Positions 839 to 54,000 of a DNA stretch of 64,000 nucleotides are shown in pieces. The DNA is from Rhizophagus irregularis. Its lineage: Eukaryota. The notes below the pieces were generated by a model. It worked only from the letters and a program-made list of their open reading frames with translations, made no database searches and was not told where the DNA came from. The position numbers were made by a program, and so were the translations under genes. Within the stretch, counting starts at the first letter, position 1; each line of letters begins with the position of its first letter. Location: positions 5,022,001 to 5,086,000 of the forward strand of contig NC_089434.1 of assembly GCF_026210795.1 (NCBI RefSeq), read 5' to 3'.

Positions 839-3570
839 TAAAGATGGTCGATTTGCTCGTCATCGACGATGGCGCTACTTTGCCCTAAATTCATTAATGA
901 AACGCAGAGCATCATCAGAAGGTCGACAAATTTAGAGGAAGGGCAACTCACAGTGGACGATACTAGATTTAATGCAAAACGATACTCACATAGCAAAGTA
1001 TTACGGTATGATGAAGGATTGCGTGATACTATTCAATATTGGATGCGTCGTAGAGCTGAATTAGACAAGGTCTCAGAGAATGATTTTCTTTACATTTAGC
1101 GCAGATATGCATTGGCAAGACTTACATAATCTAATGCATAATGAGAAAATTCTGTAAACACAGAAACAGTCCAGGAAGCTGCCAGGCGCCGACGTAAAGA
1201 TCTCATAAATAATCTCCATATTGCTGCATGGTTCTTTGAAAAGCGATTTAAAGTTTTTTTGTTTGAGAAAGTGTTAATGTTAATTCCTAAATAGGGATTA
1301 GTTGACTGGTGGTATCGATTTGAGTGGCAATTCATGTTCATAGCATTGCCAAGCGAAAAGAAGCACCAGAAATCGATTGGGAAAACATGAAAAATAATGA
1401 TCTTTAGTTACAACAATCAATCCCGACCTGAATGCACCTCCTTCTGATCACCACCCATGCCAAAAGCACTCTGAAGACTTTAATGATAATAATGGTTACC
1501 TTACTTATCTAGAACTAACAACTGCCAGAAATGATCCACTTACAAATACAGGGATGGATGGCAAATGTTGATTTGATACCCATCTTTACCAAGCAGTATG
1601 TTTCGAAGTATGCTAGCGAAGCAGAACCACGGTACTTAGGGTCCTTAGCCTTCTCAGAAGTGTTGGACAAAGCTCTTCGTAATGATAACCCAATGATCCA
1701 GCTGTTAAAGCATTCCAAAAGTTGCTTATTCACACAGTCGGAGAACGTGATTTTTCGGCGCAAGAACTTGTCATCATCTTCAATTACCGCTCTATCATAG
1801 TAGCCGAAATTTTGTTAGTCTAAAACTTAACGAAGAGGCGAATCAACAGCTTCGTGATAGTAATGAAAATGTTCCAAATAATGAGAACAATGGAATTATG
1901 TAAACAGATGCCTTACCTCTACAAAGATATTGTAATAGACCTGCCGAACTTGAGGAACTTTCATTGTTCAAATTGGATCAGCAATATAAAAACATTGTAC
2001 GTATTTAGCCGCGTCCATCTCCCATTCGAAATGGTTCGTTATAGAGACCTTCTTAGCCTCACAGAGAATCACACTCTTTCATGGATTGATTTATATAACC
2101 AACATCTTGTAGAAATCAATGACGACCCTGATGATTTAATTGGACCTGCTGTGGATGATATTCAAGAAGTTGATGGTAACGATTCTAATGAAGAAGACGA
2201 CGACACACCACAGGAAGCGTATGAACTTCGAACTGACTGGATGTTACTGGCTGAAATGATGCCAAATAGACAGACGCGTAGCCTAGATGACTTTAGTGCC
2301 CGTGATATTGATAGAATCACGACCGGGTTAACGAAAGTTTGCTACGATATCATGAAATTGAAGAGGCAGAAAGCTTTATCCAGCAGGCAATTGGTAACAA
2401 CTAAGTAACTATAGTTGGAAATAATTCAGCTAGTATCGACTTTAGAACTCTAAGTGGGAAACAAAGGTTAATACGTGAAAGAGTAGAATCCATAGCACCT
2501 TTAAGAATTATTATCATGGGTACTGCTGGAACCGGCAAATCTTACCTTATTTATGCTATTCAGAGCACTATTCATTCGTCACTTTCTGTTCCAATATGCG
2601 GGGCAAACATTGAGAATCTTTGAAGAACTCCAAAGAAAACCAAAATATATAGAATATTTTATAATCGATGAAATGAGTATGGTAGGACGTCGTTTTCTTG
2701 CTATAATTGATTTACTAAGGCTGTGGTAAACATTTCCGGATCACTACAATATTCCCTTTGGTAGCCGATCCATAATTCTTGTTGGTGACTTTGGGCAGCT
2801 TTCCGGCATGTGATGTTCCCGGACTCTCTAGATCATATGGTCGTAGTGCCTATAGTCAACTTCAAGAAATTTATAAACTTGAGGCTATGCAAAGACAACA
2901 GGTAACTCGGATAAACAACAACAATTCAGAAATCTCTCATCACTTACGTGATGGAAGGTCTACACGATCCGACTGGGAATTATTTAATGACGTGAATTCC
3001 AGAAAATATTCCTGAATCAGAGAGAAAAACTTCAGATGCCATCAATGTTCTAACAACATGGGAAGAAGAGGATAAAATAAATTTGAATAAACTTCGATTA
3101 TTAAACCAACCCGTTGCTAAGATTCATGCGGTACATACGGGTGGATCTGAAGCTTCTAAGGTCTGCAGAATGCTGCTGGTCTTATAAATGGGGTAATAGG
3201 GACAATAACAGATATTTTATATAAAGAGAAGCCCGAGTACACCTCTTTACCTGAGTTTAATTTGACAGTATAACGGTCCAACTCTTAGGAATATAGAAGG
3301 GTCTATTGTTCTATAAGACGTATGTGGGAAGATAAAACCGGAAGTTGCTCTCGCTTGCAATTTCCACTTTCTCTTGCGTGGGCCATCACAGCTCATAAAT
3401 TGCAAGGTCTGACTGCAGTAATAGACCTTGGGAACAAGGAATTTGTGGCTGGCTTGTCATTTGTAACAATTTTCCGTGTTCGTTCTCTAGATGATATTCT
3501 TTTCAAACACTTTAGTTTAAACAGACTTGAGCGTAAAAAGGTTGAAAGAGCGGTTAACGAAAGAAACTAG
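839..3570 (+). pseudogene. Degenerate Helitron-like RepHel (HUH Rep + PIF1 helicase), 5'-truncated
   Basis: Fragmented motifs across frames: DGRFARH..RWRYFALN, WWYRFEWQ (Rep), YVSKYAS, GTAGTGKSYLI (Walker A ~2520), IIDEMSMVG, LVGDFGQL, QFPLSLAWAITAHKLQG, SFVTIFRVR; many frameshifts and deletions. Confidence 0.85.
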
Positions 3571-3954
3571 ATTAAGTGGAATACAACGATTTAAATTTTT
3601 CTCGTTTTTTTAATAACCAAATTTTTATTTTTGGCTTTTTCGTTGAAAAAAGATTATCAGAATATCTGTGTTACCTGTGTTACAAAAAAAAAGGCTTTTT
3701 CTTATGGATAATACAAATAATTAAAGGTGATTCAAACGTTTTATAGCAGATTATAGCAGATTTATTCTTTATTCATATTTTTTTTTTGTTAATATTTGCT
3801 TCTTCTAAAGATCTTATACAAGTTCGACAAAATTCATATCAAGCATAGTAATTTAAACTCTGATAATATCATAATGGGTATAAATTTATTTCGAAAAAAA
3901 AAGAGTTTAAAATAAAAAAATATACAAGCAAAATTAAAAAAAAAAACATTTTCA

Positions 3955-4560
3955 TCTTTAGAAAAAAAAATCGAGGAGGAAGATGAAGAAAATCAGAGGG
4001 AAAGAAATCAGAAAATACAATTAAAAGAAGATATAATGCGTGTCATCACTGTCAAATAGGCTATCTAAACGTAAAAGAAGCTCATCTTATGAGATGGCGA
4101 AGATGAAATCTCAACGTAAAAAGAGTTCACCCAAATCGACACTGAAACATCTCTGCTTACAAATCTTAATAAAAGAAAGGAATGGTTTCTATAATAATAA
4201 AATAATAAAAAATAAATACACCAAGATTCGTACTTACAAATCTTGGCCGTTTGGGTAAGTTGAGATTTAATATTTGCAACTCATAAGATGAGATTCTTTT
4301 ACGCCTAGATAGCCTATTTGATGCCTAACAAAAGAAAAAGAAGTCATTGTTCTTTTAGTAAATAATCTTTTATCAAATTACCATGAGATGACATTTTAAA
4401 AGAAGTCATTGATAGTAAATAATTTTACCTTGAAGGACCGTAAGATTTTATAGGCGCGCGTTCCGCCCGCCAACATTAAATCTTTTTTTAATTGTGCCTT
4501 CCGGTTTCTTTCTCTCTGATTTTCTCCCGCTTCCTCTTCCCGATTTTTTTTTTTCAAGAG
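3955..4560. repeat. Foldback (imperfect inverted-repeat) segment; also present at ~51108-51685
   Basis: GAAAAAAAAATCGAGGAGGAAG..AAAATCAGAGGGAAAGAAA and TCAAATAGGCTATCTAAACGTAAAAGAAGCTCATCTTATGAG are mirrored by CTCATAAGATGAGATTCTTTTACGCCTAGATAGCCTATTTGA and TTTCTTTCTCTCTGATTTTCTC..CGATTTTTTTTTTTC. Confidence 0.75.
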
Positions 4561-13098: not shown

Positions 13099-14639
13099 AA
13101 TCATAACTAAGAATTTATTAATTCATCAGCGTGAAGTTTTTTTTTCCCAATAATAATTGTTTTTTCTCATGTCGTCCTATAATTTCCCTTTAACCATTTT
13201 TGTGAATAGTTAAATATTCTCTTCAAAGTAACAAGATCACTTACAATAATACAGTTTTGTATCATTCTTTTTGATAAATGAATTATTTTCGATTAAAACC
13301 TATGAAAATATTCAATTATACTTCGTTTTCGATAACATTCATAGCATTCTCCTAATCAACATTTCGTTGTGAAACAAATTTTATTTATTTATTTTTTTAT
13401 TTTTTCTTATTTAATTTTGCTCAATCTTTGTGAATCAAAAGTGAATCAAAACATTGTTTCTTCTGGAATAGATCATGTAGTGCAGTGAAAGAATGAGCAT
13501 TAAACAAACGATCACTGTCATTTACAAAGCTTTGAATACATTATGCAGGTGAAAGTTTAATCACACAATTGAATCATCAAGATTTTCATTTCGTTACGTT
13601 GAATCAGGATTTGATAAAATAAATAAATAAATAAATCAATAAACCATATATTATAAAATAAACACAAACAATAAAACCTGTATATATGAATTTTATATTA
13701 TGAATTTTATATACTGAGCCTTATTAATTCTATTAATTCTATCAACTTTATTAATTTTATTAAATTAAATTAAACTGAATTATAATTCAAAGACCTTTAA
13801 GTTGAAATTACTGAATCCCATCAGGTGATTTAATTTAATTTAGTTTAATTTGAATTTAACAATACTACTTTCATTTATTTTCTAATAATTACCTCTTCTA
13901 TTTATTATAATAATTTTTTTTAAATAAAAATAAAGGTTTAGTTTTATTTTTTTTATTTTTTATCTTTATTTTGTTTTTATAATTATTATTTTTATGGTTT
14001 TTTTTTATTTTTTTTATATAAAATTGATAATCCTTTTTAAAAGTTTTTTTTTAAAATTCTACTTTAATATTTAACCTATTAGTAAATTTTATATAATTAT
14101 ATGATATAATTTTGCCCAAATTTTCAAAATAAACGTCGTCTGTATCACGTGGCGTTACTCAAATCCAAAAAAGGAAATTGTGTTTCCCCGTAAAAAATGT
14201 GACTAAATTGGGTTATCCCATGTTACACAAAATTCAAAAAAAGGAAATTTTACGTCGATTTCATAATTCCGCCCGGAATTATCTCATTTTCTGTAAAATA
14301 CATTTTGTAACGCGTTTGCTTATCTATTATGTTACACGATATACAATTGTAATTTGTTTAATTGTTTACCAATGATCTTTTTTTTTAGACACGTATTTTT
14401 CTTTTATTTTTTCTCAATTTTTTTTTGAAATGTCGTTAATGCTACTCTTTACTTTGTTTTTTGTTGTTTATTTACTACTTTTTTGAAATGATATTACTGA
14501 CACTTTCTTTTCTTTTTCTTTACTTTTTTTATGAACTATTATTTCATTATTATTACTAGTTTTTTTTCCTTTTCTTCCTTTTCTTGATGCTTTGCTTTAT
14601 TTTTGTGGTCTCCTTTCATGCTATTTTGTTTTTTCATGG

Positions 14640-15390
14640 GGTATTTGTTTCATTTTCGTAGTGTATTTTGGTGTATTTAACTTATTTTTGTGGTGTATTT
14701 ATCTCTGTATTTGCTTATTTTTGTGGTGTATTTGTGTTCTATTTAACTCATTTTCGTGATGTATTTGTTATGTATTTAACTTATTTTTGTGGTGTATTTA
14801 TCTCATTTTTATGGTGTATTTGTGGTATATTTATCTCTGTATTTACTTATTTTTGTGGTGTATTTGTGGCCTATTTGACTTATTTTATGGTGTATTTGTG
14901 GTACTTTTGTGGTGTATTTATCTCTGTATTTGCTTATTTTTGTGGTGTATTTGTGTTCTATTTAACTTATTTTCGTGGTGTATTTGTCTTATTTTTGTGG
15001 TCTACTTAACTCATTTCGTGGTGTATTTGTGTTCTATTTAACTCATTTTCGTGATGTATTTTTGTGGTGTATTCGTAACTCATTTCGTGGTGTATTTGTG
15101 GTCTATTTAACTCATTTTATGGTGTAGTTGTGGTGTATTTGTGGTGTATTTGTGGTACTTTTGTGGTGTATTTGTGGTTACTTTTGTGGTGTATTTGTGG
15201 TACTTTTTGTGGTGTATTTGTGGTACTTTTGTGGTACTTTTTGTGGTGTATTTGTGGTATTTTTGTGGTATTTTTGTGGTATATTGTATTTGTGGTATTT
15301 TTGTGATGTATTTATCTCTGTATTTGCTTATTTGTGGTGTATTTGTGGTCTATTTGACTCATTTTTGTGATGTATTTGTGGTACTTATTT
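14640..15390. repeat. GT-rich low-complexity satellite, (TTTGTGGTGTA)n-like 11-12-bp units
   Basis: Dozens of TGTGGTGTATT/TGTGGTACTTT variants with higher-order blocks (ATCTCTGTATTTGCTTA, CTATTTAACTCA). Confidence 0.9.
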
Positions 15391-16096
15391 ATCCACTTTT
15401 GTATTATATATATTTAAAAATTAATAAAATTTTTATTTTTGAATTTTTCTAACTATTATTGGGATGGTTATCACTAGTGCTTCGATCTGAATGGGATTTT
15501 AATGGATCAATCCGAGTTGGATATTAGTTTGGCCAAAATTAATAAAATTTGTAGAAGAATAATTTTTTTAAATCTGACAAAAATTATAGTTTGACAAAAA
15601 TAATAGAAAAATGTTGTGATGTTAATTAACAGATCAATCAATCCGGATTGATGCATTAGTTATCACTGGTGACTGAAATTATAATGATTGATTAGCATTA
15701 AAAAAATATAGTGCCAGTTAAAAATAACAAATCCTTTTACTAACAGATTAAATACTCAAGATAGGATAAATAATATTATATTTAAAGAAGAATAATTTAC
15801 TAGATTCACAGAAAAATTAAATTGTAGTACTTAATAATATTTTATTTGAATTGGATTCAATAAATCTAAAAACTTATTAAATGAAAATCTTATTTTATTA
15901 AAATACCATAATAAAATGTATATATTAACTAATTAGCAACAACTGGTAATATAGTTGGACTTATAAAAAGACAAAAATATTATTAACAATATTATAATAG
16001 ACCTAGTAACAACATAACTAATTTTATTTTAAATCAATTCTGAAAGAAAAAGGGAATAGTTAATATAAAAAAAAAATCAAACTAATAGATATAGTC

Positions 16097-16232
16097 GGGG
16101 TCTTCACAAAAAACGTGATTGAGATTGAGATTGAAATTTAGTATAGAATTTCAATCTTACTAACATATTAAAATTGAAAATTCTATATGAAATCACAATC
16201 TCAATCTCAATCACGTTTTTTGTGAAGACCCC
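16097..16232. mobile_element. Palindromic MITE, 136 bp
   Basis: GGGGTCTTCACAAAAAACGTGATTGAGATTGAGATTG ... CAATCTCAATCTCAATCACGTTTTTTGTGAAGACCCC, 37-bp perfect TIR; TSD ambiguous. Confidence 0.85.
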
Positions 16233-16849: not shown

Positions 16850-17510
16850 TACATTGCTGGCTGACTTCAAGAATTTAGAAATGAAATAAAATTTATCAAG
16901 AAAAGCTTTATAAAAAAGCAACATCTTCTGATTAAATTATTATTGATAAAGTTTTACCATTATTATATATTAAATGTCAAGTTATTCTTTTAAATATAAA
17001 TGAAACAGGGCTTTTTTACTGGTATGTTTTTATATTTTGTTTAATATTATATTAGCAATAATTAAATAAGGAATACTTTTTTTATAAATTAAAACTATAT
17101 CAAATACTAACTACAAAATATATTTCTGAATGAAAAAAAATAAATAATGTCTCCCAATTATTTATATATAAATGCTAATGAGTTGCATAAGCTGAGTTCT
17201 CCCAGTAAATAGTTTTTGTATAAATTTGTACTAAATGGGCTCATCCATATATAATTGGCTCTAGATTGGCTTAAATTTGGATTATTTTTTGCATAAATTT
17301 GAGCTAATTTCGAGCCAATGAGCCCGTTTGGTATAAATTTATACAAAAACTATTTACTGGGTCTTTAATAATTGAAAAATTTGCAAGTCTGTTTTAAAAA
17401 TATTAATTTTAATAATTTGCCAATAATATATCAAAATAATAATAAGACTTGAATGACTATTATTTTTTTTCAAGAGTAGCTTAAAAAATTTGATTATCAA
17501 GTAACTTAAA
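16850..17510 (+). pseudogene. Ancient pogo/Tigger transposase relic, interrupted by a MITE
   Basis: Eroded equivalents of NADETGLF (NINETGLF ~16993), NA..HKL, FKNIN..NLPIIYQNNNKT*MT. Confidence 0.55.
17201..17361. mobile_element. MITE with CCCAG termini and 3-bp TSD (CACTA/EnSpm-like)
   Basis: TCT|CCCAGTAAATAGTTTTTGTATAAATTT ... AAATTTATACAAAAACTATTTACTGGG|TCT; near-palindromic over its whole length. Confidence 0.88.
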
Positions 17511-17820: not shown

Positions 17821-20800
17821 GGCCGGACAAATTAAATTTTATGTTTCTCATTTTTCAAATCAAATGACTTGACCCGGAAGGCCGGTTTTTTTTTATAATT
17901 TATAGTTTTTTTTATGCAATTTTATTGGTCCAAAACATATTATTAATAATTTTTTGTCAATAAAAATGGGCGTACAAAATACTTATAAAAGATATCAGAT
18001 GTTCTATGATCCTTCCATTTTAATACATAGATGAACGTGGTATTAACGGTCCAAAAATATATAAAAAACCGCAGTTTTCACAGGTTCCGCAGGACCCTGA
18101 AGAATACATATACAACTCAGATCCAGATCCAAAATTTTAATATAACTTTATACACCTAATTTTATTAGAAGCTTTATACAAAATCATCACATAAGTTCAA
18201 ATTTTATTATAAATTATACAATTATAAATCTGAGTTTATATAAAAAAAAAATTTTTAAAGAAAAATTTCAAATAAATTTTATTGAAAATTTTAATAAATA
18301 TTATTAAAAGACTATTTCTATTTGTACACTACGTGTGTGAACACGGGTCACATGATTATTATCATTTTCGGTGATCTGCATAAAAAATTTCCTATTTTGG
18401 AAATTTGTGTAACGAATTTTCATTTTTACGGAGAAACAAAATTGCCTTTTTTGGGTTGTGTAACGTTACTCTAATATCCAAAATTGGAAATTATGGTAAT
18501 TTTTGGCTGGAATTATAAAATTTGGCTGAAATTAGTAGACGTGACATATAATATGTGACAAATAAGGGTTTTCCTACTGAAAAAATTCTAAGTCCCTAGA
18601 ATAAATAGTAAAAATGGAAAACTATAGGGGTGTGACATGGGTGACAAATTATTGTCACGTGATCCGTGTTTCGTACACTAGTGTATATTAAGAAATTATC
18701 TTATTAAAAATTCTAACAAATACTTAAAAATTTTTTTTAAAAAAAATTATTAAAAAATAACTTAAATAAAATTTTTAAACAAAATTGCATGTTAAAATTT
18801 TAAATACCTTATAGATATTGATGCCCAATATGTATAATATAGTAAGTTTTATGCAAAAATTTGGGTGTATATTACAAAATAAAAGAAAATACATTTTGTT
18901 ATATATCTCACCACCCAGTGATCGTAAAAAGATGAAACACAGCTCGTTGGATTCGTCTTGACAAGACGAATCGAATGGTAGTAGTTTCGTGTTTCTAGGT
19001 GTGATAGATGTTGAGCTATACCACACATCGGCACTTTGTATTTTCGTCTACTGTGCATTTTTACATTTTATCACATAACTCGGCATCTATCGCGCCTAGA
19101 AATATGAAACTACCACCATTCGACTCGTTGTATTGAGGCGAATCTAATAAGCTGTGTTTCATTTCTCTATGATCACTAGATGCCGAGATATGTAATAAAA
19201 TGTATTTTTTTTTTAATTTTGTAAATGAATTTTAAAAAAATTTCTTCATTTTTATTAAAAAAATGTCTTAAAACGAACCTTTAAAAACTTCTTAAACAAA
19301 AAACAATTTCTATTAAAAAATATTTCAAGTGTTTTTTAAAACAAATAAAAAAACTCTTTTTTAAAAAATATCTTAAAAATTTCTTAAACAAAAAATAAAA
19401 AAAAACTAAAAAATTTTAAACGTATATAAAAAAAATTCTAATATCCGTTATACAAAATGAAAATCTTACTTATTGTAAAAATCATTATTGTTATACAAAT
19501 AAAAATCTGACTTTTTGCGTAACTGCTATTTGGTTATACAATTTCAAACATATGACTTATTAAGAAATTACATAGTAAGTTTATACAAAATTGGATCCCA
19601 GTATTATATGTATTCTTCGGGGTCCTGGTTCCGCAGATTCTGCAGTTTTTTTTTAAAAATGGGCGTAATCAACATTTCTATAAAAAAAGGTCAAAAACAA
19701 ATATATGGATGAATGATCCATCTATTTAGTGTTACGGATAAACGTACAATTGAACAATTCTACAATGATTTACCTTTAGGCATTTTATTTGAAGAAAATC
19801 GAGAGTTGGAAGTTAAAGTTTTTTTGGGAGACAATATTCGTGATATCTCTAATGGAGTAGCTTTAAATTGTCCAATTGCTGATACTACCAAGAGTTTTGG
19901 TGAATGTATTGAACTCCGGTTGCAAGATATACCTACTATACAACCGTCAGCTGGAAAAAATGCTTTTAATATTTTATTACAAGAATCAAGTCAGCTTTAT
20001 TTACCAAATATGAAGGAGAATGGTAATGAAAAAGAGTGTATGAAATTTAATTTTGTTAATTATTTTCAAGAAAATAATGCAGGATGGGTTGGAAAGGATA
20101 CTGCTGAAAGTCTTGGACGTGAATTCATTAAACATATAATGGAAGCAATTTGGTATATTGATATGTGTGGTGTTAAAAAATTTAAAGATCGAGGATATAG
20201 CATTCCTACATCACTGAGTATTTTTTTTGAATATGCTAATCCAGCATACAAAAAAAAAAGACCTGATTTTAAAAAAAAAGTATTAAATGGGCATATAAGT
20301 AATTTAATAACTTATAAAGAAGCAAAATGGTTTAACAAATCCTCATTTAATTGGTTTAAAAAAACATTTATTGAGTTTTTAGATTCTTTAATATCATACG
20401 TATTGTATTTAGATAATCAGGCAAGGGTTATGAACGAAAATCATGCTTTGGATAAGCCAGTCCGCTCTATTGCAGGTTTATGAACAACTACAATTTATAA
20501 TGCTAATAAATTTCGCTCAGGGAGATATTATAAAAAAATATGAACCATTGGTTGATGTTTTACAAAAATTGGAAGATTGGGTTCCATTAGATATATTATC
20601 ATATTGTTTAGACAATCCTACGTAAGTAATTGATTTACTAAATAGTTAATAGAAATTTTCAATAAAAATTAATATACAATTAATTTTGTAGCAAACGATA
20701 TGTTTATCTTAATGGTTTTGAAAAAGCATTTCCTTTTAAAGTTGGTCATTATTCTTTCAATTTTGGCAATAATTCATTCAATGTTACTTGGGTATGGAAA

Positions 20801-24123: not shown

Positions 24124-26668
24124 ATGTCTGATGAAAATATTGAATTTTCTGAAGAAAATTTGTTACCCTATCCTTCCAATGAAGTTACGAATTCTGATCT
24201 GTTTAGTGGCAAGATTTTTTCATCCTGGGAAGAGTGCGACTCATTTTTTGATGGTTGGTCTAAAAAAAATGGATTCCATATAAAGAAAAATCGTGTATTA
24301 CGTGAAGAAGGCAATATCTGACGTCGAACATATTTATGTGTTCATGGTGGTTCATATGAGTCAAAATCCAAAAAAGATACTTCCACGAAAAAAACCAAAT
24401 GTCCATTTTTAGTCAATGTTTCATGTTCTAAAACCAAAAACCCGAGTTCAAATGTTGTTGTTAATAAGCTTATAAATGAACACAATCATTCTTTAAGTGT
24501 AGAAATGATAACTTTCGAAGAACAAAAGAAATTTACAACTGAAATGATGGAAGACATCAAGTTTCTAACATCTCATTGTAAATTTGGTGCGACAGCTCAA
24601 AGAAAATTCTTGGAAGGAAAGTATCCTTCACAACCAATATATTCTAAAGATTTATACGCAGCTATTCAGAAATTTCGTCCAACTTCTAAATCACTATTAA
24701 ATGATGCTGCTTTGATGTCCAATTGGTTGGACCATCAAAAAGAATGTGATTCACGCTGGGTGATTGTTAGAGGATGGGATGATGATAATACGCTTACCAG
24801 GTTATTATAGATGACCCCTGAACAAGTTGATAATTGGATACAATTTTCGGACTGTGTATTAAATGATGTTACACATAAGACAAACCGCTACGGTATGGCG
24901 TTATCATTATTTGTAGGATTCAATTGTCATCGAAATAATATTCTTCTTGCTCAAGCCCTACTTTCTGATGAAAGTATGGAATCACACCTTTGGGTTTTTC
25001 ATGAAATATTAAAGGCAACAGGAAGGCAACCGTCAGTAATAATGACTGATGCCGACCCTGCAGTTGATTCTGCAATTCGACAAGTTTTTTCACAAACCTA
25101 TCCAATTCATTGTGCATTTCATATGACGCAAAATATTAATAAAAACCTGAGAAAAATTCTTGGAGACTCTTATCCAAAGTTTTTAGATGCATTTTATATA
25201 TGCAGAAATAGCCTTGCAAATGAAACATTTGAAAAACGGTTTGAGAATCTTTTTCAGGATTTTCCCGATGCTAAGCCATATTTGAAAACGCTATATCAAA
25301 CTAAAACTTATTGGGCTCATTGTTTCACAAGTTTTAAGTTTACAGCTGGCATGATTGCAACTTCCCGGGTAGAAGCTGTTAATGCTTGTTTGAAACGATT
25401 ATTGTATAATTCAAACATTTCTTTATGTGATTTAATGACAGAAATACATAGACTTTTAGATATGCAAGATAAAAAAGAGCAATATAACTTCTGGAAACTT
25501 GCTATTCCTTGTATAAGAAACCAAGAAAAGTCTAACTTTCTTTTTAGAAAATTAGATAATTATTTGGAAAAATTTCTTACTCCTATAATGCTTCAAAGAC
25601 AGCGTGATGAAATAAACCAATCAGTTTATTATACTGCTACAAAATTACCTGATAACGATATAGAAACTATTATTGAAGTAAGTTTTTGCTTTAGTTAGGG
25701 TTAGGATTAGGGTGGGTTATTAGGGTTAGGATTAGGGTGAGGTATTAGGGTTAGGATTAGGGTGAGGTATTAGGGTGAGATTAGGGTGAGATTAGGATGA
25801 GATTAGAGTTAGGGTTAGGGTTAGGGTTAGGGAATAGGCTTAGAAAAAACTTTTTATACTAATTTATTTGTTTTAAAAACAGAGTTCCGACGATTGTAAC
25901 ATTGAAATTCGTGATGCATCAGAAGCAGAAGTTCAGCAAATAACATTAAAACAGATTATTGCTTTGGTGGATTTAATTAACATCACTGAAATATGGTCTA
26001 TAATTGTTAACAACACTACAGCCATAAAACATTACATTGTCTTATTGAAGAATAATTCTCATATTTGTTCATGTCTTTCTACTATTCAGCAAGGTGTTGT
26101 TTGTAGGCATTATTTTCAAGTAATGCTTACAACGAGTAATGCTAAATTTCATATTCGCCTTATTCCTTCTCGCTGGTATTATAAAGATCTAGATGGAAGT
26201 AATGAACCTTTTTTTACTGCAGATAAATTTTGCAAAGAAAATGATGGAATTATACAAGAATCACCTGTTCATATTGATTATCTATGTGCATATGGTCAAG
26301 ATAAAGATTTTCTTGAAGAAGGTCTTAATACATATCAGCAAAGGTTGGTTTATGGAGAATTACATGGAATGTACAAGAAAGCTCTTCATAAAGCACTTCA
26401 AAACAAGTCGAGTTCACAACAACTTATTGACCTATTGAAAGAATTTACAGAAGAAACTGATGAACCATCTGAAGATGAAAACTTTAGTGATAAAGAAAAT
26501 CAGGAGCATGTGCTTCACAATCCCAAGAAAAGACGTGGAAAAGGTCGACCATTAGGTACTAAACGGTTCAAATCATCACAAGAAACTAAAAATAAAGAAA
26601 AACATCAAAGACGTTGCAAAAAATGTGGAAATGTTGGGCATTATCAAAAAAATTGTAATAATGTTTAA
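24124..26668 (+). pseudogene. FAR1/MULE transposase with SWIM and C-terminal CCHC finger; intron 25678-25882; two in-frame stops
   Basis: F.SWEEC..F and CPF..HNH (FAR1 DNA-binding domain), DVTHKTNRYGM, IMTDAD, HCAFHM, TSRVE, CSC..CRH (SWIM), CKKCGNVGH..KNC. One frame, broken only by TGA 24319-21 and TAG 24808-10. Confidence 0.9.
25695..25835 (+). repeat. Interstitial telomere-like (TTAGGG and variants) array inside the MULE intron
   Basis: TTAGGG/TTAGGA/TGAGG(T)A units ending in four perfect TTAGGG. Confidence 0.95.
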
Positions 26669-36030: not shown

Positions 36031-36422
36031 CTTTGTTTAAGTTTTAGAAAGGTGAATTATTTTTTTTTTTTTTATTATAAATTAATAAAACTTTTAAGAT
36101 TATTATGATTTTTATTTTTATTTTTTAATATATTTAAATTTACATTTAATAATTAAAAAAATTAAATCATACATACCAGCAGTAAAATATTCAAAATCAT
36201 TCAAAATTTAAAAAATCTTACCAGATTTTTCAAAAACCTTTCAAAAAATCCAGCAAAATTTGAATAGATTTTATGCATTACATATAATATAATAGGATAA
36301 ATATCTTTATTTATTTTATCATAATTTTGCTAATCATTTTACCAATTATTAATTATTTATTCAATTTTATCTAATCAATTTTTTTGCAAAATTTACTTAA
36401 TAATCTATACTAAAATTTTAAT

Positions 36423-37132
36423 GGGTATTGCTAAATATCACCAGTGGTGATCATTTTCAAAAATTTTTGACTGAAATATTATTCTAATTATAATATAAAT
36501 ATTATTACTATATGTAAATTTATAGGTAAAACAAGTTTGCCTTAAATTATAAAGGCTGTTGTTTAGATAGTTTTTGAGAAAAATAGGAAAGTTTGATTTT
36601 ATAAGCAAAATACAATTTTTTGTTTTAAAAAAGATTTTTTTAGTCAAATTTTCAAAATTTTAGTGTGATTAGTATCTACTCAGGTTTGTTTTACACATTT
36701 ATTATTTAAATTGAAATTTTTGAAAAAAAATTTACAAAGGACCCCGGATATCTAATATAAAGGTCATAATGGACTTTTGGCCAAAAACACCCCTTTTTGC
36801 TGAAACTCAAAAAATCGTTTTTTGTAAATATCTCAGCATTCAGTAATTCAATTTTAATGAACTTTTTTTTATTTTGTAGCCCTCATTTAGCTCTACAATT
36901 TAAAAAAATGTTCATCAAAATTGGACCACTGGATGCCGAGATATTTACAAAAAACGATTTTTTGAGCCCCTGAAAAATGGGCCAATCTGCCGAAAGTGTG
37001 ACTTATGACCTGTTTTGGAGATATCCGGGGTCCTATTTACAATGTGTTTTTTAATTCTAGCCAAAATTATAATTTTCGGCCAGAATTAAGTGATATGGTA
37101 ACGATCACCACTGGTAATATTTAGCAATACCC
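36423..37132. mobile_element. Non-autonomous MULE-type element
   Basis: 30-bp TIR GGGTATTGCTAAATAT(C/T)ACCAGTGGTGATC; perfect 9-bp TSD AATTTTAAT (36414-36422 and 37133-37141). Confidence 0.9.
36738..37034. mobile_element. Nested MITE with 8-bp TSD
   Basis: ATTTACAA|AGGACCCCGGATATCT ... AGATATCCGGGGTCCT|ATTTACAA. Confidence 0.9.
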
Positions 37133-38885
37133 AATTTTAATTATACTAAAATTATAATATGATATTAATTTTTACTTAAATTGAAATATTATTAAGTAAC
37201 TTTACTAATGGCAATTTTTTATAATTTAATAAAAATAAGTATTAATCAAAAATAAAATAAAGGATTTTTATCTATTATATTATTTATATATTATTATAGT
37301 TTAACTTAGAAAAACTAGAGGATTAGCAAATTGATGTCTTGATAAAATATTAAAATAGCCAAAATTATGTAAAAGTCTTATTAAAAGTTAATGAAATTCT
37401 AAAGAAAAGTGAAATCTGATAAAATTTATTATAAATGTTGAAATTGTTAAAACTTTGCTAAAAGTCTAAAATTATAATAAAATTATAGTAAAATCTTAAA
37501 GAAATTAATTGTAAGATTTTGGAAAGGTTTAAATAAATTTAAATAAGCAACCTTATTAGTTTAACTATATATTGTATTTAAACTCTTTATTTTCTGAAAA
37601 TTCAGATATTTCATTATTTTTTAATGGTTTAGATAATCTTTTATTCAAAGTAGTAATATTTGTTACTGCTTCTATAACTTTATTAAAAAAATTTTTATGT
37701 ATTCTTTATTATTAAACTTTAATCTTTACTGAAAGTTGTTATATTTTTTAATATTAAAAATAATAAAAGATAAAAAAAACTTGAAATTTACCAGGGTTAG
37801 CAAGTTTTAAAATTTAAATAAAAATTAATAAAATATAGCATATTTTTTTTAAAGAAAAGTTTAACAAAAAGTTTTTATAATGAATATAATAAATATAAAG
37901 TTTAAATAATATATAAGTAAATGAATCTTTAGAATCTTTATTTGAATTAGATTTTAATATGCTTATAAATTCAAAAAAATTAGTTTAACAAAATATTTCA
38001 GAGAAAGAAAACAATTGGAAGAATTTAATTACTAAAGTACCAAATAATGAAAATTAATTCTATGTGTAATTAACATATTAGATAGTAAAATTCAGCATTA
38101 CAACTATAAAAAAAATTGAAATGGCTTTAGTAAATGATTGGAACTTAGCAAATTGATGATAAAGAAGTTAAAGCAAAAAATTTTTCAATTGAAGATTTAA
38201 ATGTTTATTATTCCCTTTTTTTATATAATCAAAATCAATTGCATTTATCAAATTTAAAACAAATTAAAGATTATGGAAAGTATTATTCATAGACATAGAT
38301 GTTTATTTTGTAATAAAAATAAATTTTTTTTTTAATTATGATTCTAATTGTAAAAAACACCCATATACAGTTATAGGTAAAAATATTCAGGTATCTTGTA
38401 TAAGGCAAATGAAATGTGGTTCCTTGCAAACAACCATTCTTTTGTAATTCCAACAAATTTGAGTAAACATGCATGATATATATGAATTGTTATAAAGAAA
38501 AGAGTGGGCATATTTATCAACATGTTGGATAAGATATAAAAAAAGAAGGCATTAGAAGTAATTGGATATTGGATTCTTAATATTGCTAATTCTGATAATT
38601 TAGCATTTCAAAAAAAAAGTTTTAGCACATTTAGCTCCTATTTTATGTATTATTAATACTCAAGAAAAATCTGGTACTACATCATCAACACTACTATCAG
38701 TACAAAATATAAAAAATGAAGTATCTTCTTTATTTAATAATTCTATTTTAGTAAAATTTAATTACAATTTGATAAAAATTAAAAATTAATCCTAAGAATC
38801 TATCATCAAAACATTTTTTGAATTTGGAGAAGCATTAGCACATACAATAATACTCGCAAAAAATGAATTAAAAATTTAAGATCAA

Positions 38886-40186: not shown

Positions 40187-40300
40187 GCAAATGTATCGTT
40201 CTTATACGATCAGGTGCTATGTTCTTATACGACGTATATGTCACATAATATAGGTCGTATAAGATAGTATGTCGTACACGTATAAGAACGATACATTTGC
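40187..40300. mobile_element. 114-bp MITE with 9-bp TSD, interrupting an EED exon
   Basis: GTCTCTGGG|GCAAATGTATCGTTCTTATACG ... CGTATAAGAACGATACATTTGC|GTCTCTGGG; 22-bp perfect TIR. Confidence 0.92.
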
Positions 40301-48294: not shown

Positions 48295-50869
48295 CAGTCG
48301 TCCCCCTCTATAGTCACCCCCTATATAAGAACACCCCCTATTTAGTCATATCATTGTCAAGTCCCGTTTTTTTAAATATTAAAATGCCCCTTTTGTAGTC
48401 ACAAATCGATTATAGTCACTATCACACTAATAGTTAGTCCCGATATAATAATTAACATATGAAAATTTCCCCTTATATAGTCATATCACGTGATTAACAA
48501 TGTATTCGGAAAATATATCGCGCGTTTTGTGCATAAAATGAATTTTCCTTTTAAGTTGATAATCACCACATGTTTCGAACTTTTTCTTTACAATTTTTAT
48601 TTGAAAATGTTTTATTTTTCGATTTCAAACTTTTTTCATTACATAAATTCATCCTTTTACAAAAACTATCTTTTTCACTTTTTTTTATATCTAATATAAT
48701 GCCACCTATACGTTTACAAAAAGCAAGGAGAATTCGTTCTGCCATTAGTAATGAAATAAAAAAAGAAATATGTGAATATATAATGGCAAATAGTAATGTG
48801 AAACAGGAAGAAGTTGCACTTTACTTTAATACAAAATATAATGAATTAAACATTGATAGATCAACTGTATCAAAAATATGGCAAAATCGTGAAAAGTGGA
48901 TGGCAGTTCTTTCAACTTCACAGACTGCATGTACATTTCGTCATCGCTCAGTTCAGTATCCAGAACTTGATAAGGCCTTGCAAATTTGGACAGCACAAGC
49001 AGTGACCGCTGGACTTCCTTTAACTGATATGATTTTACAACAAAAAGGAATAGAACTTGCACAAATGTTAAATATTGGAGAAAATCAAATAAAATTTACT
49101 AATGGTTGGGTGTACAGATTCAAAAAACGGAATGGACTTCAAAGAGTTAAGTTTTCAGGTGAGGCTAATAGTGCCCCTATAGAAACTCTTCCAGAAGAAC
49201 GTGTACGTCTTCGTGCACTTTTAGCTAAGTATGACAAGGAAGATATTTATAATGCAGATGAAACTGGGCTTTTTTTCCGAATGGAGCCAAACCAAACATT
49301 GAGTACTGGTGCAGTTGCGGGGCGTAAAATGGTAATTTTTATTGTAATAATTTTTCGTTAAAATAACTCTTTAAATGTTTTTTATTTTTCTGTAATCACT
49401 TTTTGACAAAATAATTATTTTCTGTAGGACAAAAGCCGAGTTTCTGTTTTATTTTGTGCTAATGCTACAGGATCTCATAAAATTCGTCCTTTGGTAATTG
49501 GAAAATCATTAAATCCCCGATGTTTTAAAAATCTCAACAAGTCAACTCTTCCAGTCATTTATCGAGCCAATTCAAAAGCATGGATGAGATCTGATATTTT
49601 CATTGAATGGCTTAAACACCTTGACTATTACTTTCGCACAATGGATAGAAGAGTTTTACTTCTTATTGATAATGCAGGATCCCACTTTAATCCAAAAAGA
49701 TTTAAAAAAAATGATGATATGGATGATGAAGAAATTTCAGAATCTGATGACGAACAAGAATCTAAAAAACAAAAGAAAAAAGAAAAACCTGCTGTTGATC
49801 TTACTAATATTGAGCTTGTTTATCTTCCACCAAATACAACCGCTCATCTCCAACCTATGGATGCAGGTATTATCCATAGTTTTAAAGCTAAATATAAACA
49901 AGAATTTTGTAGACATTTAATTCGGCAGTTTGATTCTGGAGTTGATCATGTTAAGTAAGTTTAAAAAATTAACATTATTTTTCTATTAATGTTATTAATT
50001 TATTATTTTATTTAGAAATAAGTTAAACATTAAGGAGGCAATTGATTATATTGCTGAATCATGGAATAATGTCACTCCAACAACAATTCAAAATTGTTGG
50101 ATCAAAACAGGTATACTTCCATCTTGTGATGATGATAATACGGATGAAGAAGATTTAGATGATGATGAACTTGAAAATCTTCTTATTAATTTGCCGGAAG
50201 AAACTGCTGATGTATTGGAATATTTTCAGTTGCTTGATCGTGAAATTCCAACTGAAGAGCACCTTACTGAAGAGCAAATTATTGATATGGTGCGAAATGA
50301 AGAAAATCAAGTAGAAGAAAGTGAAGATGATGACGAAAATGAAGAAATTCCTCTGATATCAGTGAAAAAAGCAATTAATGGGTTGGAAACTTTTGTTAAT
50401 TATTTTGAACAACAAGAAGATTCGAGTTTAATATTGGTGATTTGCGTATTTTTAGAAAATACTTACGAGTAATTAGAGTTAGAGAGATCAATGCAAAAAA
50501 GCAAAGTACACTTGATGGTTTTTTTGATAGGTAAATAACATTAATATAATTTTTAATAATTGCGAGATGTAATACTTTTATTAGTTATAATAGTTATAAT
50601 AGTTATAATAGCGTAAAATAATAAAATCGGATTTGATATACATATTAGAAGGCAACGTGCTTTATTTTTATCATGTTATATAATTATATTTAATTTTAAA
50701 ATAAAGATTATTATATAAAAATAACAAATAAAAAAAAAATTTATAGTCACGCTAATACAAAAATTTTATATATATGTGACTATATTGTAAAAGTCTCATA
50801 TAAGCACACCTCTCTATAGTCACAGCATTGTGTGGTCCCAAGAGGTGTGACTATAGAGGGGGACGACTG
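48295..50869 (+). mobile_element. pogo/Tigger (Tc1-mariner) DNA transposon, 2575 bp
   Basis: TA|CAGTCGTCCCCCTCTATAGTCAC ... GTGACTATAGAGGGGGACGACTG|TA; perfect 23-bp TIR; several subterminal TATAGTCAC repeats. Confidence 0.96.
48699..50472 (+). CDS. pogo/Tigger transposase (CENP-B HTH + DDD); exons 48699-49331, 49428-49954, 50016-50472; ancestral stop probably 50534
   Basis: HTH domains, FTNGWVYRFKKR, NADETG, IDNAGSH, LPPNTTAHLQPMD, IQNCW..TG. Splicing restores one open frame; 1-bp frameshift near 50423. Confidence 0.9.
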
Positions 50870-51095: not shown

Positions 51096-54000
51096 GTTCA
51101 CCGCGTCCTCTTGAAAAAAAAAAATCGAGAGAGGAAGCGGGAGAAAATCAGAGAGAAAGAAACCGGAAGGCACAATTAAAAAAAGATTAATGTTGGTGGG
51201 TGGAACGCGCGCCTATAAAAATCTTACGGTCCTTCAAGGTAATTTATGATAAAATGTCGTCTTTCATGGTAATTTGATAAAAAATTATTTACTAAAAGAA
51301 CTTTCTTTTGTTAGGCGTCAAATAGGCTATCTAGGCGTAAAAGAATCTCATCTTATGAGATTGCAAATATTAAATCTCAACTTACCCAAACGACCAAGAT
51401 TTGTAAGTACGAATCTTGGTTTATTTATTTTTGTTATTTTATTATTATAGAACGGTTTACTAACCATTCCTTTCTTTTTATTAAGATTTGTAAGCAGAGA
51501 TGTTTCAGTGTTGGTTTGGGTGAACTCTTTTTACGTTGAGATTTCATCTTCGCCATCTCATAAGATGAGCTTCTTTTACGTTTAGATAGCCTATTTGACG
51601 CATTATATCTTCTTTTAATTGTATTTTCTGTTTTCTTTCCCTCTGATTTTCTTCATCTTCCTCCTCGATTTTTTTTTCTAAAGATGAAAATGATTTTTTT
51701 TTTTAATTTTGCTTGTATTTTTTTTTATTTTAAACTCTTTTTTTTTTCGAAATAAATTTATACCCATTATGATATTATAAGAGTTTAAATTACTATACTT
51801 GACATGAATTTTGTCGAACCTGTATAAGATCTTTAGAAGAAGCAAATATTAATAAAAAAAATATGAATTCAGAATTTTAAAGAATAAATCTGCTATAAAA
51901 CGTTTGCCTTTAATCATTTGTATTTAAGGATGGTCATCGGTCCTACCGGTCCTACTCGGTCCTGGACCGGTCGGTCCCGGGACTTGTAGGACCGGACCGC
52001 GGTCTTGCATTATTTTGTGGCGCAGTAGGACCGGTCCCGAGGACCGACCAGTCCTCATATCGGTCTTCATATAATAAATGATTTTTATATTGAATAAATC
52101 TATTAATCTGATGAAGGTCTTTATAAAATAATATAAAGACCGACCAATTATAAACCAATAAACAATGACAATCACTTCTCCCCACTTGTAGAGTTGCCTG
52201 TCAAAACGCTAACTCCAAAAAAGCGTTTAAGCGGAATGTCTCGTCATCCAGTGATCATAAAACGATGAAACCACTACCATTCGAATCGTCTCAACGAGAC
52301 GCGTCGAATGGTGGCTAAAACATATTTCCAGGATCGATAGATAGCCGGCAATTATTGAATTTGTTATCAAATAGTTTTGCCGATGTAATTTTTTTTTCTA
52401 TCGATTATAAAATAATGATTTTGATACCATTCGACGCTTCTCATTGAGACGATTCGAATGGTGGTAGTTTCATATTTTTATATTCACTGGATGGCGAGAT
52501 ATCACGATTATTATCACCAATACAATAATAGTAAGTGCATGACGCATGTGATGATCATTTGTAAAAAAAAAATTTGTATATTTAAAAACATCCCGATTAG
52601 TGTTCATATTTATAAGACAAGGCTATTCCTAATAAAGTTAAGGAAAAAAATTTTTTTATTTGTAAAAAAAAAAGAAAAAAGACTGATCGGTCTTAAAAAG
52701 ACTGCGGTCCTTAAAAGACCGACGGTCTTATTATATGTGATACAGGACCGAAAGACCGCGGTCCTACACTAAGACGGACCGGTCCGTCTTTTTATGGTGT
52801 AGGACCGTAGGACCGCGGTCTTTTAGGACCGATGACCATCTTTATTTGTATTATAAGAAAAAGTTGATCCACTAATAACGTTTTATTTGTAACACAGATA
52901 CTCTGATAATCTTTTTTCAACGAAAAAGCCAAAATAAAAATTTTGGTTATTAAAAAAACGAGAAAAATTTCAATCGTTGTATTCCACTTAATCTAGTTTC
53001 TTCCGTTAATCGCTCTTTCAACCTTTTTACGCTCAAGTCTGTTTAAACTAAAGTGTTTGAAAAGAATATCATCAAGAGAACGAACGCGGAAAATTGTTAC
53101 AAATGACAAGCCAGCCACAAATTCCTTCTTCCCAAGGTCTATTACTGCTTTTGATAAAGTCAGACCTTGCAATTTATGAGCTGTGATGGCCCACGCAAGA
53201 GAAAGTGGAAATTGCAAGCGAGAGCAACTTCCGATTTTATCTTCCCACATACGTCTTATAGAACAATAGACCCTTCTATATTCCTAAGAGTTGGACCGTT
53301 ATACTGTCAAATGAAACTCAGGTAAAGAGGTATACTCGGGCTTCTCTTTATATAAAATATCTGTTATTGTCCCTATTACCCCATTTATAAGACCAGCAGC
53401 ATTCTGCAGACCTTAGAAGCTTCAGATCCACCCGTATGTACCGCATGAATCTTAGCAACGGGTTGGTTTAATAATCGAAGTTTATTTAAATTTATTTTAT
53501 CCACTTCTCCCCATGTTGTAGAACATTGATGGCATCTGAAGTTTTTCTCTCTGATTCAGGATTATTTTCTGGAATTCATTAATAATTCCCAGTCGGATCG
53601 TGTAGACCTTCCATCACGTAAGTGATATCTGAATTGTTGTTGTTTATCCGAGTTACCTGTTGTCTTTGCATAGCCTCAATTTTACAAATTTCTTGAAGTT
53701 GACTATAGGCACTACGACCATATGATCTAGAGAGTCCGGGAACATCACATGCCGGAGGAAGCTGCCCATAGTCACCAACAAGAATTATGGATCGGCTACC
53801 AAAGGGAATATTGTAGTGATCCGGAAATGTTTGCCACAGTCGTAAATCAATTATAGCAAGAAAACGACGTCCTACCATACTCATTTCATCGATTATAAAA
53901 TATTCTATATATTTTAGTTTTCTTTGGAGTTTCTTCAAAGATTCTCAATGTTTACCCCGCATATTGGAACAGAAAGTGACGAATGAATAGTGCTCCGGAT

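What the first reader, a model, noticed from the sequence alone, without database searches (positions are those of the whole stretch)
18905..19189. Fixed-geometry ~113-bp palindromic module shared by three apparently unrelated transposons
Seen: five copies of a symmetric unit with dyad centres at 18961 and 19133 (inside the Zator-like element), 36886 (8-bp-TSD MITE), and 52294 and 52444 (hAT). Each has a central palindrome (e.g. GATTCGTCTTG-A-CAAGACGAATC; ACCATTCGAnnCGTCTC-n3-GAGACGnnTCGAATGGT; TTGTAG-n13-CTACAA). An outer (A/G)TCTCGnCATCCAGT-like box starts exactly 56 bp from the centre: 18905/19017, 19077/19189, 36830/36942, 52238 and 52500. Spacing is kept although the core sequence diverges and the host TIRs/TSDs differ. 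In two hosts the units come as inverted pairs. Inference: a conserved cis-acting protein-binding scaffold, such as a recombinase/resolvase-like site with accessory arms, a nucleosome-positioning or anti-silencing element, or a hitch-hiking module spreading between TE superfamilies.
Basis: partly seen in the sequence, partly recalled or inferred. Interest (0 to 1): 0.88.

Follow-up and report, generated by a model that had tools for sequence, protein, structure and literature searches.

The report
Nucleosome-sized palindrome shared across transposon superfamilies
A roughly 115-base symmetric DNA unit with rigid internal spacing sits inside many unrelated jumping-gene families of what is likely a mycorrhizal fungus, repeats mostly at 147-150 or 172-183 base intervals, has a look-alike (counted by hand) in oyster repeats, and likely marks where one nucleosome sits, which would make it a portable chromatin cassette that transposons pick up from one another.

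Summary
The five dyads are real and at the stated places. One detail is wrong: pair 1 lies not in the Zator-like element itself but in a nested 1,536-bp element with the same AGGACCC ends and 8-bp TSD as the 297-bp MITE, so the window holds two host kinds, not three. The larger claim survives an independent test. A metagenome scan with the box-to-core gap left free (25-55) gave 40 of 62 matches at exactly the window's spacing, all in AT-rich loci. Hosts there include a transposase-bearing hAT, a pogo derivative and several other end types. Units are about 62% identical, yet 86 of 95 show no net indel. They form arrays of 1-6 in any orientation; 34 of 38 neighbour distances are 147-150 or 172-183 bp, with a conserved 35-bp linker at 182. 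A hand count finds the same geometry in published oyster satellite monomers. Best reading (0.5): a nucleosome-centred module read by a dimeric factor and spread by capture between elements. The 10-bp periodicity test was weak (p 0.04-0.42) and no chromatin data were seen. Rivals: non-nucleosomal protein platform, recombinase site, passive satellite. Ten literature searches found no description.

The parts
18904..19018 (+). Unit 1, dyad centre 18961 (CGTCT-type core; outer arm with CCAGTGATC box, inner arm with CATCTATC box)
19019..19075 (.). Linker of pair 1 (centre-to-centre 172 bp); shortened form of the linker conserved in 182-bp arrays, holds the TGCCGAT motif
19076..19190 (-). Unit 2, dyad centre 19133, inverted relative to unit 1
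18091..19626 (.). True host of pair 1: 1,536-bp non-coding element, AGGACCC TIRs, 8-bp TSD GGTTCCGC; superfamily not assigned
   Evidence: relatives L007, L054, L025
18327..18683 (.). CACT..AGTG-ended insertion flanked by TA inside that host; without it the unit pair is central in the host
17821..17880 (+). Left end (GGCCGG) of the Zator-like element into which the host of pair 1 is inserted; its right end was not found
36829..36943 (.). Unit 3, dyad centre 36886 (TTGTAG-N13-CTACAA core, both arms of the outer type), exactly central in its MITE
36738..37034 (.). 297-bp fold-back MITE, AGGACCCC TIRs, 8-bp TSD ATTTACAA; 148 bp from each end to the dyad
36423..37132 (.). Outer MITE (GGGTATT TIR, 9-bp TSD AATTTTAAT) that received the 297-bp MITE
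52237..52351 (+). Unit 4, dyad centre 52294
52387..52501 (-). Unit 5, dyad centre 52444, 150 bp from unit 4, inverted
52189..52207 (+). Relic end (TAGAGTTGCCTGTCAAAAC) matching the TIR of another module-bearing family (L041); sign that the pair was captured from that lineage
51925..52844 (.). 920-bp non-autonomous hAT-like host (TAAGGATGG TIR, 8-bp TSD TTTGTATT), inserted in a Helitron-like repeat
48295..50869 (+). pogo-type element with transposase remains and no unit; its ends match the four-unit non-autonomous element in L053 (comparison only)

Best explanation
The unit is a rigidly spaced, roughly 115-bp dyad carried as cargo by many unrelated DNA-transposon families, and it likely marks the seat of one nucleosome, with its near-invariant centre likely read by a dimeric protein that would place or hold that nucleosome. 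Shown: shared sequence and spacing across hosts, arrays of 1-6 units in any orientation, neighbour distances of 147-150 or 172-183 bp, a conserved linker in the 182-bp class, mid-element position, truncated and relic pieces that point to capture from other elements. Inferred: that a nucleosome sits on the dyad; that a sequence-specific factor reads the core; that carriers gain from it, either because central wrapped DNA would bring the two ends together and leave them bare for transposase, or because it would set an ordered, permissive chromatin state upstream of the transposase gene. The module is not needed for transposition as such: relatives of two hosts lack it.
For: Geometry: symmetry is about a single base, as for the nucleosome dyad (established knowledge, recalled). 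Column conservation falls from 0.5-0.6 bits at 50-59 bp to about 0.2 beyond 60 bp on both sides, close to the roughly 120 bp held by histone folds (recalled). In the 181-183 class the symmetry runs on to about +/-73 (AAACGTCA) and is followed by a shared 35-bp linker with TGGCGCAGTA and ATGCCGA, in hosts with different ends (L008, L025, L017, L019/L050, L037/L049/L053, L042, L029). Spacing: 15 of 38 neighbour distances are 147-150, 19 are 172-183, 1 is below 147; 181-183 occurs in all four orientations. TA steps occur at +/-35.5 in 70% and +/-56.5 in 61% of arms, and A/T steps peak near 14, 25, 35, 47, 56 and 66. Constraint: median identity 0.62 among 45 units, 86 of 95 hits without net indel; 1 indel in 459 unit sites against 22 in 1,292 flanking sites of the same element pairs, p 0.015. 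Specific reading: CpGs at -7 and +6 are intact in 69% and 88% of the 26 units not selected by the scan pattern, against 31-58% at six other CpG sites. Capture. Position: array midpoint within 4% of element length from the centre in 10 of 10 elements with both ends placed; dyad 312-331 bp upstream of a long ORF in 3 loci. Oyster CgiSat02 shows the same box-core-box distances with boxes recurring at 148, 149 and 140 bp (hand count).
Against: No chromatin data were seen. The planned phase-locked test of 10-bp A/T periodicity was negative (p 0.42); free-phase versions gave p 0.092, 0.052, 0.036 and 0.113, best period 10.6-11.3, so one of five tests passed 0.05. A 147-bp step leaves no linker, and one pair is 137 bp apart (L056), too close for two whole nucleosomes. 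Histones alone do not need near-invariant bases. The spacings are not independent (several come from one array or family). Central position is built in for fold-back elements (about half of the ten). Only 293 of 990 unit pairs had a gap-free best alignment under my scoring. The indel contrast for the hAT pair alone is p 0.057 and flanks hold homopolymer runs. The fourth transposase locus (L019) has its three near units in a nested MITE.
Confidence: 0.5

Rival explanations
1. The unit is a binding platform for non-histone proteins (promoter, boundary or anti-silencing factor) whose own footprint sets the spacing; nucleosomes are excluded rather than centred.
For: Near-invariant core and boxes; retained CpGs, CpG o/e 1.55 in units against 1.02 in the window; similar distance upstream of three long ORFs; weak 10-bp signal.
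Against: Does not by itself explain a floor near 147 bp, the 147+35 layout or the drop of conservation near +/-58. Most carriers are non-coding elements with nothing to transcribe. A Pol III B-box reading fails because position -12 is C in only 6 of 26 units.
Confidence: 0.17
2. The unit is a tyrosine-recombinase site with accessory arms (7-bp overlap between inverted core elements), acted on by a Crypton-type enzyme, which inverts or deletes segments between units.
For: Odd-centred dyad with a variable centre; arrays in mixed orientation; about 1,800 DUF3504 recombinase copies in 72 Glomeromycota genomes, and DUF3504 also in animals (PMC13465315, abstract); a one-unit element with two outer-type arms (36886) could be a deletion product.
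Against: Only 10 of 38 neighbouring units share the central 7 bp in either orientation, while such enzymes need matching overlaps (recalled). No strand-changing joint is among the 15 joints listed for the hAT host (5 more not shown; contigs only). Hosts are TIR elements with TSDs. No recombinase gene was found in the ORFs scanned (20 window ORFs, 26 locus ORFs).
Confidence: 0.13
3. The unit is a passive satellite-like monomer from one old element, copied in tandem and by fold-back and spread by nesting and deletion, with no function; geometry reflects common descent.
For: Capture is directly visible (relic TIR at 52189, 89% shared block between L025 and L008, truncated unit in L029). Relatives without the module exist. 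TE-borne arrays of 138-181-bp monomers are known in oyster (PMC7492417, section 5).
Against: About 38% divergence with almost no length change, sharp position-specific conservation, indel depletion and the in-register oyster match (hand count) are hard to get without selection.
Confidence: 0.13
4. The unit acts as a single-strand hairpin or cruciform (DNA or RNA structure).
For: Seven of 8 units folded with z below -1.9, three below -4.7; arms of one unit match slightly better than arms of different units (0.573 against 0.534, 0 of 2,000 shuffles).
Against: Self-complementarity is 0.35-0.86, median about 0.58; the two arms keep different consensus boxes; one high-scoring unit folds no better than chance (z -0.7); no Rfam or tRNA match. 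The small excess could come from fold-back duplication or conversion.
Confidence: 0.05

Closest known systems
Satellite-like arrays inside non-autonomous Helentrons (Cg_HINE) of Crassostrea gigas (PMC7492417: passages and section 5 read; PMC8268682: passages and supplement parts 1-2 read)
   Same: Short arrays (mostly 2-5 monomers) in the middle of non-autonomous elements; monomers of 138-181 bp; the authors tie the size to nucleosomal periodicity. By hand count CgiSat02 carries the same box-core-box distances as unit 36886, and CgiSat05 one arm in the fungal register.
   Different: There the monomers are described as head-to-tail and element-specific and the carriers are Helitron/Helentron. 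Here one monomer family sits in TIR elements of several superfamilies, in all orientations, and each monomer is a dyad. In the passages I read the papers do not describe an internal dyad or a link to other kingdoms.
Tn3/gamma-delta res and Xer cer/psi sites (recalled, no call)
   Same: About 115 bp, symmetric core with outer boxes at fixed distance, inside a transposon.
   Different: res has three separate subsites and a 2-bp crossover (even symmetry); here one dyad is centred on a base, arrays run to six, and no recombinase gene is linked. The pattern shows no excess in 596 Gb of prokaryote genomes.
Phage Mu strong gyrase site; Stowaway MITE internal enhancer (recalled, no call)
   Same: Internal, centrally placed cis-sequence that helps the ends meet or raises excision; the Mu site has periodic arms that wrap a protein.
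   Different: Those are single and family-specific; this one is shared between superfamilies and arrayed. No effect on transposition has been measured here.
Transcription-factor motifs amplified by several MITE families in plants, such as E2F sites in Brassicaceae (recalled; search did not return the primary papers)
   Same: Unrelated MITE families carry and multiply one host-read motif.
   Different: Those motifs are about 8-10 bp; this is a 115-147-bp structure with fixed internal distances and a linker.
Zisupton (8-bp TSD; PMC12730594, passages read)
   Same: 8-bp TSD as in the AGGACCC-ended hosts.
   Different: No coding member of the AGGACCC family was found, so the host superfamily is unassigned.

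Membership tests
One ordinary MITE family nested in each host | Own TIRs and TSD at the borders of the unit or pair | tested here: not met
   TIR+TSD search finds none at the module borders; other copies share the core but have different arms in register.
One ordinary MITE family nested in each host | Same element ends around every copy | tested here: not met
   At least ten end types around arrays. Some arrays do travel in nested MITEs (L050 element inside L019), but in different ones.
TE-borne satellite-like arrays (Cg_HINE type) | Short arrays of 140-180-bp monomers central in non-autonomous elements | tested here: met
TE-borne satellite-like arrays (Cg_HINE type) | Head-to-tail monomers specific to one element | tested here: not met
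   All four orientations; best cross-host unit identities 0.50-0.90.
TE-borne satellite-like arrays (Cg_HINE type) | Helentron ends (subTIR, 3' hairpin) | tested here: not met
   Hosts with both ends seen are TIR elements, several with TSDs.
Serine-resolvase res site | 2-bp central overlap (even symmetry), three subsites, linked resolvase | tested here: not met
   Odd symmetry; no resolvase among 46 ORFs scanned; definition recalled.
Tyrosine-recombinase site | Inverted core elements around a 6-8-bp overlap | tested here: inconclusive
   Layout is compatible with a 7-bp overlap.
Tyrosine-recombinase site | Partner sites share the overlap | tested here: not met
   10 of 38 neighbours identical; copies are aged, so decay may lower this.
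Tyrosine-recombinase site | Recombination products (inversions, circles) | tested here: inconclusive
   None among the 15 listed joints of one host; contigs only, other hosts not examined.
Nucleosome-positioning element | Dyad on a base pair, span within 147 bp, neighbours at least about 147 bp apart | tested here: met
   37 of 38 distances are 147 or more.
Nucleosome-positioning element | About 10-bp periodic A/T steps in phase with the dyad | tested here: inconclusive
   p 0.42 phase-locked; p 0.036-0.113 free phase.
Nucleosome-positioning element | Nucleosome occupancy centred on the dyad in vivo or in vitro | not testable with these tools
   No MNase, ATAC or reconstitution data.
Structured RNA / tRNA-derived element | Match to Rfam or tRNA; conserved pairing | tested here: not met

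The most novel reading that the evidence does not exclude
An ancient, nucleosome-templated cis-element shared by fungi and animals (and, from recall only, possibly plants and insects) is captured again and again by unrelated transposons because it raises their success, and it is a common seed of nucleosome-length satellite DNA; a conserved host factor that reads the dyad has yet to be found.
Probability: 0.35. Interest if true: 0.93.

Novelty: categorically new. Interest (0 to 1): 0.8.

Why it matters
Transposon superfamilies are defined by their ends and enzymes, and their non-coding interiors are treated as family-specific filler. A shared interior module with fixed geometry says that something in the host selects for it. 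If the nucleosome reading holds, it gives a natural positioning sequence with a defined dyad, a concrete origin for the long-noted nucleosome-length monomers of TE-borne satellites, and a testable way for short non-autonomous elements to bring their ends together or escape silencing. The cross-kingdom match can be checked in a day with a profile scan of Repbase or Dfam. The label 'categorically new' rests on failing the membership tests above and on ten searches of an open-access library; subscription journals and Repbase Reports were not searched.

Tried and rejected
No whole genome is held for the window, so no genome-wide count or orientation survey was made. Earlier findings: three look-ups, nothing. 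Rfam and tRNA scans of the window: nothing. Viral contigs: 3 matches to the free-gap pattern, none at the window's spacing, and 0, 0, 0 for three other patterns. Prokaryote genomes: 10 matches, 1 at the window's spacing, in a 22.5%-GC fragment whose unit is almost that of L048, so likely mis-binned fungal DNA. The TTGTAG-N13-CTACAA core was found in none of the 34 outside loci screened, only at 36886, so in the fungus that class rests on one copy. Phase-locked periodicity test negative. A Pol III B-box reading was dropped. 'Upstream of the transposase' for the three units of L019 was dropped once they proved to lie in a nested MITE. The right end of the Zator-like element was not found and its ORFs have no Pfam match; 'Zator-like' rests on the GG end and recalled motifs. 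Literal motif search of papers returned two unrelated PLK4 papers. The right arm of oyster CgiSat05 lies beyond the 400 letters shown, so the prediction for it is open.

Full report
Setting. The window is AT-rich and packed with nested transposons. Its element families match contigs from soil and root metagenomes; the hAT transposase beside one outside unit has Rhizophagus, Gigaspora and other Glomeromycota proteins as its best named relatives, and another linked protein falls in Mucoromycota clusters. I infer an arbuscular mycorrhizal fungus; the species was not determined.

Observation. The outer box occurs exactly six times in 64 kb, each time 55-56 bp from a centre. Inner arms carry a second box type or have lost part of it. 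The outer arms of a pair resemble each other (0.75, 0.86) more than the two arms of one unit (0.56-0.61 in the four paired units), so the unit is a dyad with a polarity, not a perfect palindrome. The 36886 unit has a different core but its outer arms rank 5th and 7th of 127,926 window positions under a profile that did not include it.

Hosts in the window. A search for TIRs with TSDs shows that pair 1 lies in a 1,536-bp element, 18091-19626, with AGGACCC ends and TSD GGTTCCGC, itself inserted in the Zator-like element; the 297-bp MITE 36738-37034 has the same end type and an 8-bp TSD; the hAT-like host 51925-52844 has TAAGGATGG ends and an 8-bp TSD. So there are two host kinds here. Inside the hAT host, just outside the pair, lies a relic of the TIR of another module-bearing family (52189-52207). 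Contigs of four runs laid on the hAT host show relatives whose ends join without the module (joints 52077-52095 to 52644-52676, in one run) and many copies that share the core 52278-52314 but continue in other arms with the CCAGTGATC and ATCGATAGAT boxes in exact register. Variation among copies of the other two hosts was not examined at read level.

Independent test of spacing. I scanned JGI metagenomes with the box and the core fixed and the gap free from 25 to 55. Of 62 matches in 54 loci, 40 have the window's exact gap of 29; all 40, and one true copy with a 2-bp insertion, lie in 33 loci of 23-40% GC; the other 21 lie in loci of 46-71% GC at scattered gaps and were set aside as chance. 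The same pattern gave 3 matches in viral contigs, none at that gap, and 10 in prokaryote genomes, one at that gap in a likely mis-binned fragment. The scan fixes the bases of box and core, so their conservation in the first set is built in; but the 26 units found beside them that do not match the pattern give the same consensus.

Many hosts. Arrays are enclosed by at least ten end types. With protein evidence: L029, where a truncated unit, a linker and a whole unit lie between the subterminal repeats and the ATG of a DUF659 hAT transposase; L019, a hAT with BED, DUF659 and dimerisation domains that has one unit near its end and three more in a nested TA/GGGG-ended MITE equal to L050; L053, whose ends are 79-81% identical to those of the window's pogo element (Tc5 HTH and DDE_1), with four units in place of the transposase gene, while the window's pogo has none. 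L025 has the ends of the window's AGGACCC host (82-84%) but a different array, 89% identical over 511 bp to the L008 family. Unit lineages therefore do not follow host ends: the module moves by capture.

Constraint. Among 45 units below 85% identity, median ungapped identity is 0.62; of 95 profile hits of 30 bits or more over 70 or more model positions, 86 have no net indel. Against this, only 293 of 990 pairs had a gap-free optimal alignment under my scoring, which I put down to spurious gaps at low identity but did not test. Between related copies, indels are 1 in 459 unit sites and 22 in 1,292 flanking sites (p 0.015; hAT pair alone p 0.057). The CpGs at -7 and +6 survive far better than six other CpG sites, although C>T and G>A are the commonest changes among copies.

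Array geometry. Units come in arrays of 1 to 6, in all four relative orientations. After dropping six near-duplicate loci, units scoring under 50 and gaps over 260 bp, 38 neighbour distances remain: 137 once, 147-150 fifteen times, 172-183 nineteen times, 187, 209 and 245 once each. In the 181-183 class the symmetry extends to about +/-73 and a 35-bp linker with two conserved motifs follows, shared by hosts with different ends; the window's 172-bp pair holds a shortened form. The layout is thus 147+0 or 147+35. Conservation drops near +/-58. Array midpoints lie within 4% of element length from the element centre in 10 of 10 cases, in part by construction (one host corrected for a 360-bp insertion, two with an end at the contig edge).

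Beyond fungi. Oyster Helentrons carry short arrays with consensus monomers of 138-181 bp (PMC7492417, section 5). In Data S1 of PMC8268682 (53 sequences, each shown up to 400 letters) I counted by hand: CgiSat02 has TATCTC-N39-TTGTTA-N13-GAACAA-N40-GAGATA, against TATCTC-N39-TTGTAG-N13-CTACAA-N39-GAGATA at 36886; its right-hand boxes recur at 148, 149 and 140 bp, which sum to its 437-bp monomer, and the next centre carries TTGGATAC where the fungal consensus has TTNGAWTC. CgiSat05 has TATCTC at -57, TCCGATTTT at -39 and GTTAGATTC at -15, the fungal register; its right arm is not shown. CgiSat03 shows a weaker match. A rough chance figure for the CgiSat02 geometry is 2e-6 over all positions viewed and nine shifts, but the boxes were chosen after looking and nothing here was scored by a program. 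This is a strong lead, not a finished result. It also ties the 36886 core type to the others. I recall similar dyads in plant and insect elements; that comes from no call.

Mechanism. A dyad on one base, conservation to about +/-58, symmetry to +/-73, a floor near 147 bp and a second mode at 147+35 regardless of orientation are what one nucleosome per unit would give (nucleosome dimensions recalled). TA steps at +/-35.5 and +/-56.5 fit, but formal periodicity tests were weak: p 0.42 phase-locked, 0.036-0.113 free phase. The near-invariant centre asks for a sequence-specific, probably dimeric reader in addition. The gain to the carrier is inferred: wrapped central DNA would bring the ends of a short element together and leave them free (in the 297-bp MITE each end is 148 bp from the dyad), or ordered chromatin would favour the transposase promoter (dyads 312, 318 and 331 bp before an ATG in L048, L029, L045; only L029 has a Pfam-confirmed transposase). 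I give this 0.5. A non-nucleosomal protein platform (0.17), a tyrosine-recombinase site (0.13; DUF3504 recombinases are abundant in these fungi, PMC13465315 abstract and passages, but only 10 of 38 neighbours share the central 7 bp), a passive satellite relic (0.13) and a hairpin (0.05) are the rivals.

Novelty. Arrays of nucleosome-length monomers inside non-autonomous elements are known. One dyad module with fixed internal distances, shared by hAT, pogo and other TIR families and apparently by an animal, was not found in ten full-text searches (four papers opened, the rest seen as listings). The library lacks most subscription journals and Repbase Reports, and supplements of preprints are closed, so a prior note cannot be excluded. 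That the module is real, shared and constrained I put at about 0.9; its function is open to direct test. Interest 0.8.

Noticed in passing
window 839-4553 and 51114-55561: Two inverted copies (mostly 92-99% in the long arms) of a Helitron-like repeat with PIF1 helicase remains; the hAT host sits in the second, the first lacks it.
   Followed up: partly
window 48295-50869: pogo-type element with TA TSD and broken Tc5-HTH/DDE_1 ORFs; parent family of the four-unit element in L053, L037, L049.
   Followed up: partly
window 16097-16232, 17220-17341, 40187-40300: Three other small fold-back elements (the last with 9-bp TSD GTCTCTGGG); none scores as a unit.
   Followed up: partly
window 14630-15400: Tandem array built on an 11-bp period (TGTGGTGTATT-like), about one helical turn.
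   Followed up: no
window 24322-26668: Broken MULE transposase with FAR1-like and zinc-knuckle parts.
   Followed up: no
window 28592 and 35577: Two further AGGACCC starts without a partner end in the window; possibly chance or remnants.
   Followed up: partly
L048:28-3841; window 36312-36421, 37137-37303, 37588-37697: CAC-ended element with an intact 930-aa ORF (C-terminal RING-like finger, no transposase Pfam; Mucoromycota clusters without a family in the atlas) and one unit 312 bp upstream; a copy of its 3' part surrounds the MITEs at 36423-37132. Possibly an unclassified transposase.
   Followed up: partly
L007:1-840: GC-rich bacterial-type sequence with a TetR gene joined to a copy of the window's AGGACCC host: chimeric assembly or a real insertion into bacterial DNA.
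   Followed up: no
L062: A Bacteroidetes MAG contig holds a 22.5%-GC stretch with a unit nearly identical to that of L048; likely fungal DNA binned into the MAG.
   Followed up: partly
L042:196: A unit with standard outer boxes but a third core type (TTTGAAAGC..GCTTTCAGA), 150 bp from a standard unit: cores vary while arms and spacing hold.
   Followed up: partly
window 57061-57622: Four-copy direct repeat of about 141 bp; does not score as a unit.
   Followed up: no
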